DNA from: Eledone cirrhosa
Taxonomy: Eukaryota
Direction of reading: 5' to 3'
Length of the DNA: 64,000 nt
Assembly: GCA_964016885.1 (NCBI GenBank)
Contig: OZ024746.1
Coordinates: 90,830,001-90,894,000, forward strand
Under the pieces are notes generated by a model. It saw only the letters and a program-made list of their open reading frames with translations. It was not told the origin of the DNA and did not search any database. Below, piece by piece: positions 35,503 through 60,780 of this stretch. Each line of letters starts with the position of its first letter. Position 1 is the first letter of the stretch. The position numbers and the translations under genes are program-made.

Positions 35503-35710
35503 AACGAAGGAAATGTGGTAAGGAACCAGGTGGACCATAACGCACCAAAGTACTCAATACTTAGGGTAGTAGAGTGGGTAATAGGAACGAGTAGGACCCC
35601 GACGGCTGAGCTCAAGCCGTTTCAACGGCTAATTCTGGACTGAATTAAGAGTCCAGAATTAGCCGTCGAAACGGCTTGAGCTCAGCCGTCGAGGTCCTAC
35701 TCGTTCCTAT
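35503..35710. mobile_element. Fold-back PLE-type element in (TA)n, copy A
   Basis: Arms 35581-35641/35650-35710; same family at 40121-40316, 58998-59198, 47942-48055. Confidence 0.8.
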
Positions 35711-35811
35711 ATATATATATATATATAAGTAAATATGATACAATCAATATTATAAGCATATTATAACGAACTGAAATAAAATAGTTAATATAAATTAACA
35801 ATATAACTTAC

Positions 35812-35975
35812 GAAAACGAGAAAAATATTTTGATGATAAAAACGACGAAATACAGGAGGAAGATTCGAAAGCGAAACGATAAATAAACGTGCAAACAAAA
35901 TGGCGGATGCTTTTGAGCAACAATTACTCTCGTTGGTTGATTAGCCAATAAGACGATGAAATTAGCCAATAACAC
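35812..35975 (-). promoter_or_regulatory. Candidate housekeeping promoter and non-coding first exon
   Basis: Two attagCCAATaa boxes 21 bp apart (35945, 35966), YY1-type AAAATGGCGG at 35897-35906, minus-strand GTAAGT donor at 35811. Confidence 0.5.
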
Positions 35976-36128
35976 GATACATTACAAAACATGTTTGGCA
36001 GCGATCACCACGGCCAGCGACACCCTATGAATTTTTTATTCACAAGCTACGCATATATGTCAGAACACGCAGACTTAAAACATTCTGTTGTTAGTCACTG
36101 CGTGTCTAACAGATATCGTCTTTTTTTA

Positions 36129-36540
36129 ATGGTGGAGGTGGTGATGGTGGTGGTAGTGGTGGTGATGGTGGTGGTGGTGATGGTGGTGGTGATGGTGTTG
36201 GTGGTGGTGATGTTGGTTGTAATGGTGGTGGTGATGATGGTAGTGGTGAGGTGGTGGTGGTGATTGTGGTGGTGGTGGTGGTGATGATGGTGGTGATGAT
36301 GGTGATGGTGGTGATGATGGTGATGGTGGTGATGATGGTGGTGGTGGTGTTGGTGTTGGTGGTGGTGATGTTGGTTGTAATGGTGGTGGTGATGATGGTG
36401 GTGGTGGTGGTGAGGTGGTGGTGGTGATTGTGGTGGTAGTGGTGATGATGGTGGTGATGATGGTGGTGGTGGTGATGATGGTGGTGGTGGTGTTGGTGGT
36501 GGTGGTGGTGATGGTGGTGGTGGTGGTGATGATGGTGGAA
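36129..36540. repeat. (GGT/GAT)n trinucleotide repeat
   Basis: Direct inspection. Confidence 0.95.
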
Positions 36541-55214: not shown

Positions 55215-55395
55215 GGGATGAAGAAAAATCTTGACCTAGTTACAACATTCTCAAAGGATATAGGAATGGAGTTTGACCAAGATAAATGTTCTTATATGAC
55301 TGTAAAGAGGGGAAAAACTACAACCCAATCTAGCAACATTTGTATTAATGGCCTAACTGTTTCGCCGACATCTGATGAGGACTGCTACAGATACA
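55215..55395 (+). mobile_element. R4/Dong-like LINE RT fragment
   Basis: DLVTTFSKDIGMEFDQDKC; homologous to 61090-61265 in the opposite orientation. Confidence 0.8.
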
Positions 55396-55799
55396 CAGCT
55401 AACTACCTCACGTGCACATAGTAGCACTATCGCTCTCGCCCACCATGTTCTGTTTTGTTGGCACCACCTCCACCCCCACCCTCTCACACATTGTTCTGTC
55501 ATCACCACCCTCTCCTCCCACTCTTTCGACTTGACCACTTCCGGTTGCGCATGCCAAACTGCGATTTCACTTCCTCATCGCCATTTTTCTCTTGCTCGAA
55601 CTTAGACTTGATATCCGCCCGCTGTAACCCCAGATTTTTACCATTCACACACACACCAACATGCAGAAACTTAGACACACACAGATCCTTGCACCATTCC
55701 CGCACACACGCAACTATGCACCTTATGCACGAACCCACATCACCTACAGATATACCACGCAACCCCTTCTTTTAACCACACATACACCCACACTTCACA

Positions 55800-57075
55800 A
55801 CATCAACTAGGTAGATATGTATGCATGCATATGTGTGTGCAGGTATGGATGTTATCGTATGTGTGGATATGTATGTTTTGTGTTATGTGTGGATGTGTAT
55901 ATGCTTTGTATCTGTACAAGTGTGTATGCAGTTACTAGATGCGGAATTTTCGGAATGTTTTACATATTTTTACTGTTCTATTAACGGATTATACTTGTAA
56001 TTTCCTAACTAGCTGTGTTATTTCTGTTTCTCTGAAGTCCAGCTTCTCAAGATTTGTATTGAGGCAGTTACTAACATACCCCAGTGCCCCAATAATCACA
56101 TGCATAAATCTGAAGGTGTAATCAGGGTGGAGTATCTGCAGATTTCTCATTATTTCTGCATAAATATTCTCTTTTTCGCTAATTTTTGATATTATATTGG
56201 CATCTGCTGGGCAGCTAACTTCCACTACTGTGCATGCTTTTTTCTCCCTGTCCCATATCATTATAGCTGGTCTGTTATGCCTACATTTTATTGGGGGTTT
56301 TACTGGAACATTCTACCAGTACTTTTTTCATATTATGTGTATGTATGTCTTCCACATTGCTGTAGCTTTTAATGTGTTTATTATCGGGGCTATCTTTTCT
56401 ACGGATTGCATTGTACAGCGTTTTGGTCACTACATCATGCCTCATAGGTAAATGGCACCGCGCTGACATCTTTGGGCAGCTGCTTATGACATGGGCGACA
56501 TCTTCGATGTTAATTCTGCAGAGTATGCACTTGTTATCACATCTAGGTGTTTTGCCTGCATCCCTATCTCTTTTGTGAATCAGGTATTTCGTGATGATTT
56601 CCTGTTCTTGGATTGCAAAAGCGTATCCTTCAAAGTGGGAGCCTATATAGCGGTTGTTGGTCCAAGATAGACTACTTTCCTTATCTATATTACTCTCACT
56701 CTGGAGCTTCCTGGCAACATATCCATGCATGATTTTTTGCTGATAAGCATGTATTTTTCATCCATGGATTCGCTGCGGTACTGCTGAGCGACTTCCCTGG
56801 GTGTAAGTTTTCGATTATCATGCAGGGAATATCTTTCAAGGAGTTCCTTCCAAACTCTCATGATCTTATCTGTCTCGTGCAGATAGACTTGCTCGAGAGA
56901 CGGGCTTCTGCGCTTCGAGATTCGTAAATGTTGTCGAAGGGATATGATGCGACATTCAAATGCTGTCTGGACTGATGTTAGGCCTCTGCCTCCCTGCCTA
57001 CGTTTCAAGTAGAGGCGGTCTATGTCACTGTTGATGTGGAACTCTGCGGCGTTGTTTAGTATTTTTCGAGTCCTA
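55800..57075 (-). mobile_element. R4/Dong-clade RLE LINE 3' part
   Basis: GGRGL, MHG, QEQEI, C.LC..EDVAHVISSC, RHD, VVEVSCP, K...Y, IIGALG. Confidence 0.9.
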
Positions 57076-58307
57076 AATTCAAATATGTATGTATGTATGT
57101 ATTATATTTTGTGTCGGGTCACTCTTGAGTGCTACTGGTAACATGTAACCCAGTACAACCTGTCGCATGGTCGGGGCGTCGGTGACTAAACCGGCAACCT
57201 AACCAAGTTTACTTGGTGGGGAGGGTGATTTTGGACACCTGCAGGACAAAAAACAAAACTTGACCAAGGGCGGAGGAACTCATAAGTGTCAACGGCCATC
57301 CAAAAATGTATAAATATGTATATATAGGAAAATGTTCAAGACCCCGACGGCAGAGCTCGTGTATGTATGCATGCATGTATATATGTATGTATGCATGTAT
57401 GTATGTATGTATGTATGCATGTATGTATCTCTGTATGTTTGTATATATGTATATGTATGTATGCATGTTTGTATATATGTATGTATATTTGGGAACGACG
57501 TGAATTATATGCGTATATGTATGTTTATATGTACTTGAACACATGTGTTAAGGGAAAGACCCAATAAATAATGAAATAAACACAGAATAAAAATATAAAA
57601 AACAACATTCAGTCAGTCATTTCTAAGTATTTATCAATAGTTTCTTTATAATTGGCCAGGTCCTCTCCGATTGTCTCATTACAATGGCGTCATTGATGGT
57701 TACTACCAACGCCATTGGCACAGGAGAGGATACCGTCCCTTAAATATCCAGTTACTTCAGCAGTTCCTCTTTATCTGCTGACATATATCTTTACACCTCC
57801 GTCTTATTAACTCGACATTTATCCCCAAGGATTCACCGACCCTTTACTTTTCAACGATTTCCTCCCACTCAACACAAATCTAATACTCAACAATTTTGAT
57901 GATTTTACCGCTAGTCCTGTATTTTTTATATTTTTTCTCCTTCTTTATCTTCCACCCTTCCTTCATTACATCCTCCTTCCGCCCCATCTTACTTCCTTTT
58001 TCTTTCCTTCTTTCTTTCTTTCTGTCTTTCATTCTTTCTTTCTGTCTTTCTTTCTTTCTTTATTTCTTTCTTTATTTCTTTATATCTTTCTGTCTTTCTT
58101 TCTGTCTTTCTTTTTTTATATATTTCTGTCTTTCTTTCTGTCTGTCTGTCTGTCTGTCTGTCTGTCTGTCTGTCTGTCTGTCTGTCTGTCTGTCTGTCAT
58201 TCTTTCTCTCTTCTTCTTCATTACATCAGTCATAGGATCCAGCTTTCCAGACTTTATTAGGCGCCAATTTCCCCATTGAAAATCTCTCTCTCTCTCTCTC
58301 TCTCTCT

Positions 58308-60780
58308 GTATATATATATATATATATATATATATATGTATATATATGTATATATATATATATATATATATGTATATATATGTATATATATATATATATG
58401 TATATGTATATGTATATATATATATATATATGTATATGTATATATATATATATATATGTATATGTATATATATATATATATATGTATATGTATATATATA
58501 TATGTATATGTATATATATATATATATATGTATATGTATATATATATATATGTATATGTATATATATATATATATATGTATATGTATATATATATATGTA
58601 TATGTATATGTATATATATATATATATATGTATATGTATACATATATATATACATATATATATATATATATATATATATACATATATATATATATATATA
58701 TATATATATATATACATATATATATATATATATATATATATATATATATATATATATACATATATATATACATATATATATATATATACATATATATATA
58801 CATATATATATATATATATATATATATATATACATATATATATATATATATATATATATATATATATATACATATATATATATATATATATATATATATA
58901 TATATACATATATATATATATATATATATATATATATATATATATATATATATACATATATATATATATATATGTATATGTATATATATATATATATAAC
59001 GAAGGAAATGTGGTAAGGAACCAGGTGGACCATAACGCACCAAAGTACTCAATACTTGAGGTAGTAGAGTGGGTAATAGGAACCAGTAAGACCCCGACAG
59101 CTGAGCTCAAGCCGTTTCGACGGCTAATTCTGGACTCTAGTCCAGAATTAGCCGTCGAGACGGCTTGAGCTCAGCTGTCGGGGTCTTACTGGTTCCTATA
59201 TATATATATATATATATATACACACACATATATATATATATATATATATATATATATATATACACATATATATATATATATATATATATATATATATGTA
59301 TATATATACATATATATGTACATATATATGTATATATATACATATATATATATATATATATATATATATATGTATATATATATGTATATATATATGTATA
59401 TATATGTATATATATATATATGTATATATATATATGTATATATATATATATGTATATATATATATGTATATATATATACATATATACATATATATGTATA
59501 TATATATATATATATATGTATATATATATATATATATGTATATATATACATATATGTATATATATATATGTATATATATGTATATATATATATGTATATA
59601 TATACATATATATGTATATATATATATATATATGTATATATATGTATATATATATATATATATATGTATATATATGTATATATATATATATATATATGTA
59701 TATATATACATATATATGTATATGTATATATATATATATATGTATATATATACATATATATGTATATATATATATATATATATATGTATATATATATATA
59801 TATATGTGTATATATATATATATGTATATATATATATATATATATATGTATATATGTACATATATATGTATATATATATATATATATATATATATATATA
59901 TATATATGTATATATATATATATATATATGTATATATGTACATATATATGTATATATATATATATATATATATATATATATATATATATATATGTATATA
60001 TATACATATATATGTACATATATATGTATATATATATATATATATGTATATATATATACATATATATGTATGTATATAGGGATATAAATGTATATATATA
60101 TATACATATATATATGTATATAGCGATATAAATGTATATATATATATACATATATATATGTATATAGCGATATAAATGTATATATATATATACATATATA
60201 TATGTATATAGGGATATATATGTATATATATATATACATATATATATGTATATAGGGATATATATGTATATATATATATACATATATATATATATGTATA
60301 TAGGGATATATATGTATATATATATATACATATATATATATATATGTATATAGGGATATATATGTATATATATATACATATATATATATATGTATATAGG
60401 GATATATATGTATATATATATACATATATATACATATATATATATATATATGTTTATATACATATATATATATATATATATATATACATATATATATATG
60501 TATATAGGGATATATATGTATATATGTATATAGGGATATATATGTATATATGTATATAGGGATATATATGTATATATATATATAGGGATATATATGTATA
60601 TATATATACATATATATATGTATATAGGGATATATATGTATATATATATATACATATATATATGTATATAGGGATATATATGTATATATATATATACATA
60701 TATATATGTATATAGGGATATATATGTATATATATATACATATATATATATATATGTTTATATACATATATATATATATA
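58308..60780. repeat. ~2.5-kb (TA)n-based microsatellite complex
   Basis: Direct inspection; contains fold-back element copy C. Confidence 0.95.
58998..59198. mobile_element. Fold-back PLE-type element in (TA)n, copy C
   Basis: Same family as 35503-35710. Confidence 0.8.

What the first reader, a model, noticed from the sequence alone, without database searches (positions are those of the whole stretch)
35503..59198. Recurrent fold-back element whose hairpin apex replaces the 5' half of a hammerhead
Seen: four copies (35503, 40121, 47942, 58998; fragment at ~57322) form palindromes, three of them embedded in (TA)n. Each arm reads ...agccgtc-GAAA-cggct-tgagctc-agccg-TC-ggggtc, i.e. GAAA, stem III with a palindromic loop and a GUC site, but no CUGANGA. 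Apex sequences differ per copy, while copy-private variants are shared by both arms (copy A aacgagtagg/cctactcgtt; copy C aaccagtaag/cttactggtt). In copies A and C the short arm stops at 'ccta' as it enters (TA)n. Inference: each insertion made its inverted arm by snap-back synthesis at the ribozyme stem-II hairpin, or the arms are homogenised by conversion.
Basis: partly seen in the sequence, partly recalled or inferred. Interest (0 to 1): 0.75.

Follow-up and report, generated by a model that had tools for sequence, protein, structure and literature searches.

The report
Penelope stubs record RNA 5' ends
These hairpins are tiny head-to-head insertions of a very abundant Penelope-like jumping gene, and their joints suggest that each was likely made when both ends of a cut TA repeat copied the same RNA back to its end (the predicted capped start, or in a minority the predicted ribozyme cut), rather than by one copy folding back on the ribozyme's stem II.

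Summary
The fold-backs are real. They are the shortest insertions of a Hydra-clade Penelope-like retroelement: two head-to-head 5'-truncated copies in (TA)n, one with a 79-nt tail. The genome holds 33,063 exact tail hits and 17,972 short apexes. Long copies carry the reverse transcriptase and GIY-YIG ORF and a whole type I hammerhead fold, whose core is UUGANAA (U3-A8) or CUGAGAA, not CUGANGA. In 90 position-sampled copies, 113 of 171 arms stop in a 12-nt window around an initiator-like TTAGT, often followed by an untemplated C, as a cap would give. A minority (376) stop with both arms at the predicted hammerhead cut. Snap-back and conversion fail: the tail-less arm is often the longer (41 vs 24), and private variants sit on one arm (33 vs 2). 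Best reading: twin priming on one sense RNA, run-off at its 5' end, then end-joining. Against it: none of 22 ORF-bearing copies ends at that start, and no RNA data were available. The architecture is published. This scan reached the same reading earlier on other DNA of this genome.

The parts
35503..35709 (.). Fold-back copy A: head-to-head stub of the Penelope-like element between two (TA)n runs
   Evidence: same layout in most of 90 position-sampled genomic copies
35503..35581 (-). 79-nt tail (positions 1-79 counted from the AACGAAGG end), between the two fixed element ends; in ORF-bearing copies it runs straight into the 5' UTR and ORF
   Evidence: 33,063 exact hits of a 33-nt tail pattern
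35582..35641 (-). Palindromic part of the tail arm (positions 80-139), ending at the A of TTAGT, the predicted RNA start
35642..35649 (.). Apex spacer GAATTAAG; its last G precedes the short arm, as a copied cap would
   Evidence: the cap reading is inferred
35650..35709 (+). Tail-less arm (positions 139 to 80), ending in TTCCTA at (TA)n
35661..35696 (+). 3' half of the hammerhead motif (3' strand of stem II, GAAA, stem III, GUC with predicted cut after 35690, 3' strand of stem I); the 5' half is missing, so it cannot fold into a ribozyme alone
40121..40317 (.). Fold-back copy B (another subfamily), arms to positions 138 and 135, spacer GGG, in (TA)n
47942..48057 (.). Older fold-back copy in the opposite orientation; tail on the right, cut after about 8 nt; not in a (TA)n run
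57325..57358 (-). Single tail-less arm fragment (positions 80 to about 111) after a short TA run
58998..59198 (.). Fold-back copy D (AACCAGTAAG subfamily), tail arm to position 139 plus an untemplated C at 59137, partner arm from position 140, in (TA)n

Best explanation
The hairpins are the smallest insertions of a Hydra-clade Penelope-like retroelement, each likely made when both ends of a cut (TA)n tract primed reverse transcription on the same sense RNA and the two copies ran off the RNA's 5' end and were joined head to head. Shown: identity with the element's terminal repeat, two fixed outer ends 79 nt apart, one of each per insertion as a rule, a main inner stop at positions 133-144 and a minor one at 97-98. 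Inferred: the outer ends are two internal start sites of the reverse transcriptase; the main stop is a capped transcription start at the A of TTAGT/TCAGT inside the terminal repeat; the minor stop is the 5' end left by hammerhead self-cleavage after GUC; the joint is made by end-joining with trimming, 1-4 nt of microhomology or short fill-ins. The stubs lack the 5' half of the ribozyme and are likely dead ends.
For: Parent: L031 has the tail arm, then a 571-aa frame with the reverse transcriptase motifs (FDIESYY, YRDDGL), a CxCX5C linker and a VIY-YIG nuclease, then the tail-less end at (TA)n. In 22 of 30 loci of the ORF's 5' part the tail precedes the 5' UTR. Pairing: 81 of 90 tail-anchored copies have an inverted partner, and only 2 of these partners carry a tail too. 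Two cDNAs: partner longer in 41, shorter in 24, equal in 9 of 74 short pairs. One template: both arms long in 5, mixed in 2, both short in 74 (p 8e-7); arms as a rule share the subfamily markers. Run-off: 113 of 171 arms end at 133-144. Cap sign: arms ending at 139 are followed by C in 7 of 8 joints with an insertion; genome-wide C-G 516 against T-G 140 after position 139; of 22 C rows inspected about 5 could take the C from the partner arm. A sister family with a different loop II stops at the same TTAGT in most of 30 loci. Ribozyme cut: of the first 50 of 376 very short palindromes, 28 stop on both arms at 97-98 followed by non-parental bases, 12 are compatible, 10 run past. Two internal start sites that bracket the tail, with both DNA strands cut and extended, were shown in vitro for an anole Penelope-like element (PMC11167929).
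Against: None of 22 ORF-bearing copies has its upstream terminal repeat ending at 133-144; 17 run beyond and 5 stop short. A main start at 139 should leave some. In a few insertions one arm stops at 139-147 while the partner is long (L049, L134, L164). A second pile-up at 142-143, with extra A in 13 of 14 joints, needs a second start or slippage. No RNA 5' ends were available. The both-arm count of C against T (381 vs 8) is confounded by templated CAG fill-ins. The 97-98 class has no matched control site. Arm ends are my manual readings. The hammerhead fold is not more stable than shuffles (z -1.3 to 0.05) and shows no double change within this family.
Confidence: 0.68

Rival explanations
1. 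Twin priming as above, but the main stop is set by a structure or bound protein on the long stem II and loop II near the start sites, like the template boundary of telomerase, and not by the RNA's 5' end.
For: 0 of 22 upstream repeats of ORF-bearing copies end at 133-144, against 113 of 132 arms that reach 133 in the position sample. Some arms stop there while the partner is long. A-run extension at 142 (13 of 14) looks like slippage at a boundary. Stem II is kept, with changes on both strands, between the two families.
Against: It does not explain the untemplated C at 139, nor the linked fate of the two arms (p 8e-7). In the sister family the stop lies outside the upper hairpin. The 97-98 class shows that both arms can run off a shared end.
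Confidence: 0.17
2. First reader's model, and close to the published self-priming idea (PMC3846280): one cDNA folds back at the stem-II hairpin and copies itself, or the arms are later made alike by conversion.
For: The main apex lies in the loop II region of the parent. Single joints such as GGACTC-AGAA could come from a 1-bp fold-back. Arms share subfamily markers.
Against: The tail-less arm is longer than the tail arm in 41 of 74 short pairs, by 10 nt or more in 17 of 81 pairs, and by kilobases in L031 and L134. Zero-spacer palindromes occur. Private variants are on one arm in 33 of 35 cases.
Confidence: 0.06
3. A self-propagating non-autonomous hairpin element (SINE-, retrozyme- or MITE-like) copied whole from a few masters, with the apex eroded afterwards.
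For: Very high copy number (17,972 short apexes), fixed outer ends, a few recurring apexes.
Against: Near-identical copies have many different apexes. The same apex recurs across subfamilies, as convergent microhomology would give. The main subfamilies also occur as long arms. Long ORF-bearing insertions have the same two outer ends. No tandem arrays of whole ribozyme units were seen in the loci read.
Confidence: 0.07

Closest known systems
Hydra clade of C-terminal-endonuclease Penelope-like elements (Craig et al. 2021, PMC8557442)
   Same: Reverse transcriptase followed by GIY-YIG nuclease, DKT motif, CxCX5C linker, CxxC and CxH around the conserved E and N, (TA)n target, hammerhead in the terminal repeat.
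   Different: RWR instead of RWK; hammerhead core U3-A8 or C3-A8 with a long loop II, where the paper reports canonical cores; unit about 3.4 kb with a 1.2-kb 3' UTR against under 3 kb as a rule; tail 79 nt against 30-40. It is a different family from the Hydra-1_Obim entry, whose protein and hammerhead differ (compared by eye).
Penelope-like insertion unit with inverted 5'-truncated copy, optional tail and junction palindrome (PMC3846280, PMC8557442)
   Same: Head-to-head inverted terminal repeats, tail on one side only, palindrome at the joint, initiator-like motif in the terminal repeat.
   Different: Here both copies shrink to about 60 and 140 nt, in some 18,000 insertions with sharp stops. 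PMC3846280 reads the palindromes as self-priming on an antisense template; the joints here fit two cDNAs from a sense RNA.
Poseidon element of the green anole, in vitro (PMC11167929)
   Same: Two internal start sites of reverse transcription that bracket the tail; both DNA strands cut and extended; AT-rich target.
   Different: [quoted passage not shown]
U3-A8 minimal hammerheads of Schistosoma Cercyon elements (PMC4209133)
   Same: U3-A8 core, G10.1-C11.1 pair, long helix II, short helix I, palindromic loop 3; motif pairs on opposite strands 100-700 bp apart are mentioned there.
   Different: Helix III is a full 5-6 bp here, so the motif could fold as a monomer; loop II is about 35 nt.
L1 twin priming with 5' inversion (recalled, not read here)
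   Same: Two primers from both target ends on one RNA, joined by microhomology.
   Different: In L1 the two cDNAs cover different parts of the RNA; here they overlap and start at two fixed sites.

Membership tests
Endonuclease-bearing Penelope-like elements | Single ORF with reverse transcriptase and GIY-YIG nuclease | tested here: met
   Motifs read in L031; 1,799 homologues at E<=1e-20, nearly all unnamed. Pfam gave 0 families, so the call rests on motifs and on comparison by eye with the paper's alignment.
Endonuclease-bearing Penelope-like elements | Partial tandem forming a terminal repeat upstream of the ORF | tested here: met
   22 of 30 loci
Endonuclease-bearing Penelope-like elements | Inverted 5'-truncated copy and one-sided tail | tested here: met
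   81 of 90 copies with a partner, 2 of them with tails on both arms
Hydra clade | C-terminal nuclease with CxCX5C linker; CxxC and CxH beside the conserved E and N; no CCHH | tested here: met
   CNCPDGSIC, CNLC before EE, CKH after LLNKK in L031; no cysteine pair of the CCHH type seen inside the VIY-YIG core, read by eye (definition)
Hydra clade | DKT motif and RWK motif | tested here: met
   HSDKTGN; RWR, a conservative variant, read by eye from the DNA printed
Hydra clade | Insertion into (TA)n | tested here: met
   Nearly all of 90 tail ends follow a TA run
Hydra clade | Canonical hammerhead core | tested here: not met
   Core YUGANAA; a hammerhead fold is present, the core is the U3-A8 variant or C3-A8. 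I keep the element in the clade on its protein motifs and call it a variant.
Hydra clade | Placement in a reverse transcriptase tree | not tested
   No tree with named references was built
Neptune clade | CX2-5CxxC linker and CCHH motif | tested here: not met
   my first reading, dropped
Naiad clade | N-terminal nuclease, DKA motif, no hammerhead | tested here: not met
Type I hammerhead ribozyme (parent) | Three helices around the core, with GAAA and NUH | tested here: met
   Minimum-energy fold of L094 is this junction, 1 of 4 copies folded; 92.8% of cells paired in 19 distinct copies; N7 takes all four bases
Type I hammerhead ribozyme (parent) | Covariation of the helices | tested here: inconclusive
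   No double change within the family; stem II changes on both strands between the two families, read by eye
Type I hammerhead ribozyme (parent) | Self-cleavage | not testable with these tools
   Indirect only: arms that stop at the predicted cut
MITE (cut-and-paste) | Terminal inverted repeats at both outer ends with a fixed interior | tested here: not met
   One-sided tail, variable apex, retroelement parent
Non-LTR retrozyme | Head-to-tail arrays of units with whole hammerheads | tested here: not met
   Stubs are head-to-head and lack the 5' core; definition from 10.64898/2026.07.22.740005

The most novel reading that the evidence does not exclude
The stubs are a genome-scale record of the Penelope reaction: one complex primes both ends of a TA break at two fixed sites of one sense RNA and copies to whichever 5' end the RNA has, the cap in most cases or the hammerhead cut in a few percent. 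That would explain the inverted repeat and the one-sided tail of the whole class, and would be evidence from the germ line that a U3-A8 hammerhead of such an element cleaves in vivo.
Probability: 0.55. Interest if true: 0.7.

Novelty: new variant of a known kind. Interest (0 to 1): 0.5.

Why it matters
How Penelope-like elements build their inverted repeats and tails, and whether their hammerheads cut in vivo, is stated as open in PMC8557442, PMC4209133 and PMC11167929. Tens of thousands of independent joints give base-level predictions (two start sites, a cap position, a cut position) that can be tested with 5' RACE and an existing type of in vitro assay. The U3-A8 core also shows why CUGANGA searches miss such ribozymes. 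The hairpins in this window are themselves likely inert.

Tried and rejected
The repeat finder was swamped by TA runs. Rfam showed no hammerhead among the 150 rows displayed of 316. Pfam gave 0 families for the 571-aa frame. No RNA holder was listed, which says nothing on expression. Contigs of two runs (X1, X4) were laid on one ORF-bearing copy: no splice joint and no molecule ends; depth peaks over the terminal 140 nt, but these runs may be the source sample, so I do not count it. An intron with a 3' splice site at TTTAG|TCC was considered: arms often include the would-be intron bases, and no exon joint was seen. Naiad and then Neptune were considered and dropped on motifs. The first 30 loci were picked by likeness to copy A and were left out of the breakpoint counts; they are among the 65 joints, which also holds a few repeated rows. 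The first alignment had two wrongly cut rows and was replaced. The two Fisher tables used rough numbers and are replaced. Paper searches that found no account of the fixed inner stops; the library lacks most subscription papers, and older Penelope papers were not read.
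Full report
Observation. Positions below are counted from the AACGAAGG end of the longer arm (position 1 = window 35503). The longer arm has 79 nt (the tail) that the shorter lacks; the shorter arm ends at position 80 (TTCCTA) in (TA)n.

The parent. A search of the own genome (3.0 Gb) gave many near-identical copies, some running on past the apex. 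L031 has the tail arm for 614 nt, then a sense piece with a 571-aa frame, a 1.2-kb 3' UTR and the tail-less end at (TA)n. The frame holds reverse transcriptase motifs, a CNCPDGSIC linker and a VIY-YIG nuclease with CNLC and CKH. In 22 of 30 loci found with the ORF's 5' part, the terminal repeat and tail lie directly before the 5' UTR and start codon. These are the marks of the Hydra clade in Craig et al. 2021 (PMC8557442; I read sections 6, 11 and 15, further passages, and passages of the supplement). I first read the clade as Neptune; note e1-10328700 gave the lead to Hydra, which I then checked. No tree was built, and Pfam found nothing. The host is probably an octopus-like cephalopod; this is a recalled guess, not tested.

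Copy numbers. A 33-nt tail pattern has 33,063 exact hits, control 0. A short-apex pattern has 17,972, control 20. The 5' half of the ribozyme has 6,710, control 0.

The hammerhead. Long copies read ACCCC-YUGANAA-G-N-UCGGCUA...UAGCCG-UC-GAAA-stem III-UC-GGGGU. N7 takes all four bases while its neighbours stay fixed (where the pattern itself fixed those neighbours; one search shows the same without that constraint). The U3-A8 core is a described variant in Schistosoma elements (PMC4209133; I read parts 1 and 2 of 4). One young subfamily has C3-A8. The minimum-energy fold of 1 of 4 copies is the three-way junction, and none is more stable than shuffles. Within the family 92.8% of cells pair but no pair changes on both sides. 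A sister family (2,410 exact hits) keeps UUGAUAA and changes stem II on both strands, CGGCUA/UAGCCG to CAGCUA/UAGCUG (by eye).

Breakpoints. I took 90 of the first 100 listed tail hits along contig C1, chosen by position and not by likeness. By my manual reading, 81 have an inverted partner, 2 of them with a tail; 113 of 171 arms end at 133-144, 39 earlier, 6 at 145-160 and 13 beyond; in 47 of 81 both arms end in the window. Among 65 joints, 27 show 1-4 nt of overlap, 8 are blunt and 30 hold insertions.

Snap-back and conversion. A cDNA that starts at the tail and folds back can only give a partner no longer than itself. The partner is longer in 41, shorter in 24 and equal in 9 of 74 short pairs, and kilobases longer in L031 and L134. 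In 39 copies with both arms reaching 128, the arms differ by 4.6%, the nearest arm of another copy by 3.2%, an average other arm by 11.2%; 33 private variants lie on one arm, 2 on both, both in one copy (alignment slips near indels inflate some values). So the arms share subfamily letters from the template and then age apart.

One template. Both arms are long in 5 pairs, mixed in 2 and both short in 74 (p 8e-7). That fits a property of the RNA better than independent stalling.

What the main stop is. Position 139 is the A of TTAGT or TCAGT, which resembles the insect initiator TCAKTY (recalled). Arms that end there are followed by C in 7 of 8 joints with an insertion. Genome-wide, position 139 is followed by C-G 516 times and by T-G 140 times, though CpG decay works against C-G. 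In 30 of these loci, about 5 of 22 C rows could take the C from the partner arm; the rest cannot. An untemplated G at the 5' end of retroposed copies is attributed to copying the cap (PMC3287187, two passages read). The both-arm count, 381 C against 8 T, is confounded by CAG fill-ins. In the sister family most of 30 loci stop at or next to the A of TTAGTT, although its loop II folds differently. A start site inside the terminal repeat is reported for Penelope and Chlamys-3 (PMC8557442).

The minor stop. A pattern for palindromes centred near GUC has 376 hits in the subfamilies it covers, control 1. Of the first 50, 28 stop on both arms at 97-98 and go on with non-parental bases, mostly A or T; 12 read CCCCGGGG or CCCGGGG and are compatible; 10 run past (counted by eye). 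Position 98 is the first base after the predicted cut. L138 shows a short arm ending at 98 beside an ORF-bearing partner beginning at 96. Note e1-9550100 had named such a minority class before I ran this search. No control position was counted.

Against the model. None of 22 ORF-bearing copies has its upstream repeat ending at 133-144; 17 run beyond and 5 stop at 48-125. Long copies therefore seem to come from other RNAs (read-through, multimers or circles), or else the stop is not an RNA end. L049, L134 and L164 have one arm at 139-147 and a long partner. Arms that end at 142 gain extra A in 13 of 14 joints. These points keep a boundary set by structure or bound protein alive. No RNA run was listed.

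Mechanism. Shown: identity, outer ends, pairing, stops, joints. Inferred: the nuclease cuts (TA)n; each end primes on the sense RNA, one at position 1 and one at position 80, both with TAT at the site; each cDNA runs to the RNA's 5' end; the two 3' ends are trimmed and joined. Two internal start sites and extension of both strands were shown in vitro for an anole element (PMC11167929, parts 1 and 2 of 4 read).

Comparison and novelty. The architecture is published (PMC8557442; PMC3846280, ten passages read), the latter with self-priming on an antisense template as its reading. I found no paper on the fixed inner stops (listings only, apart from the papers named). The retrozyme preprint was read in part 1 of 5; its supplements could not be seen. 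Earlier notes of this scan reach the same reading on other DNA of this genome; they are unreviewed and are no independent support. My reading before seeing them already favoured twin priming and a transcription start.

Verdict. Real; a stub form of a known kind of insertion, with joints that make an open mechanistic question testable. Interest 0.5.

Noticed in passing
window 22568-22762: Fold-back of another family in (TA)n with CTGATGA on both strands at the apex and a one-sided tail that shares the motif GTACTCAATAC with this family.
   Followed up: partly
window 46336-46494: A third fold-back family between TA runs, also with a one-sided tail.
   Followed up: no
window about 41883: CTGATGA followed by a hairpin and GAAA, a possible canonical hammerhead of another repeat.
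   Followed up: no
L195-L254: Older sister family (2,410 exact hits) with the same tail layout, UUGAUAA core, changed stem II and the same main stop; a possible second stop about 10 nt upstream at TACTG.
   Followed up: partly
L054, L061, L064, L107, L130: Arms with deletions across stem III, several between the direct repeats GACGGCT, as if the enzyme jumped the hairpin.
   Followed up: no
L012, L030, L129: A-runs of up to about 18 nt at the apex after position 142, suggesting reiterative copying of a UUU stretch.
   Followed up: partly
L014, L073/L074, L038: Stubs inserted side by side in one TA tract, sometimes of different subfamilies.
   Followed up: no
tail, window 35540-35575, minus strand: CTCTAC...GTATTGAG resembles the 3' end of the Hydra-clade entry printed just before Hydra-1_Obim in the supplement of PMC8557442, a possible clade-wide protein-binding signal.
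   Followed up: no
flanks of L031, L032, L037, L048, L066 and others: Several unrelated repeat families with canonical CUGANGA hammerhead motifs.
   Followed up: no
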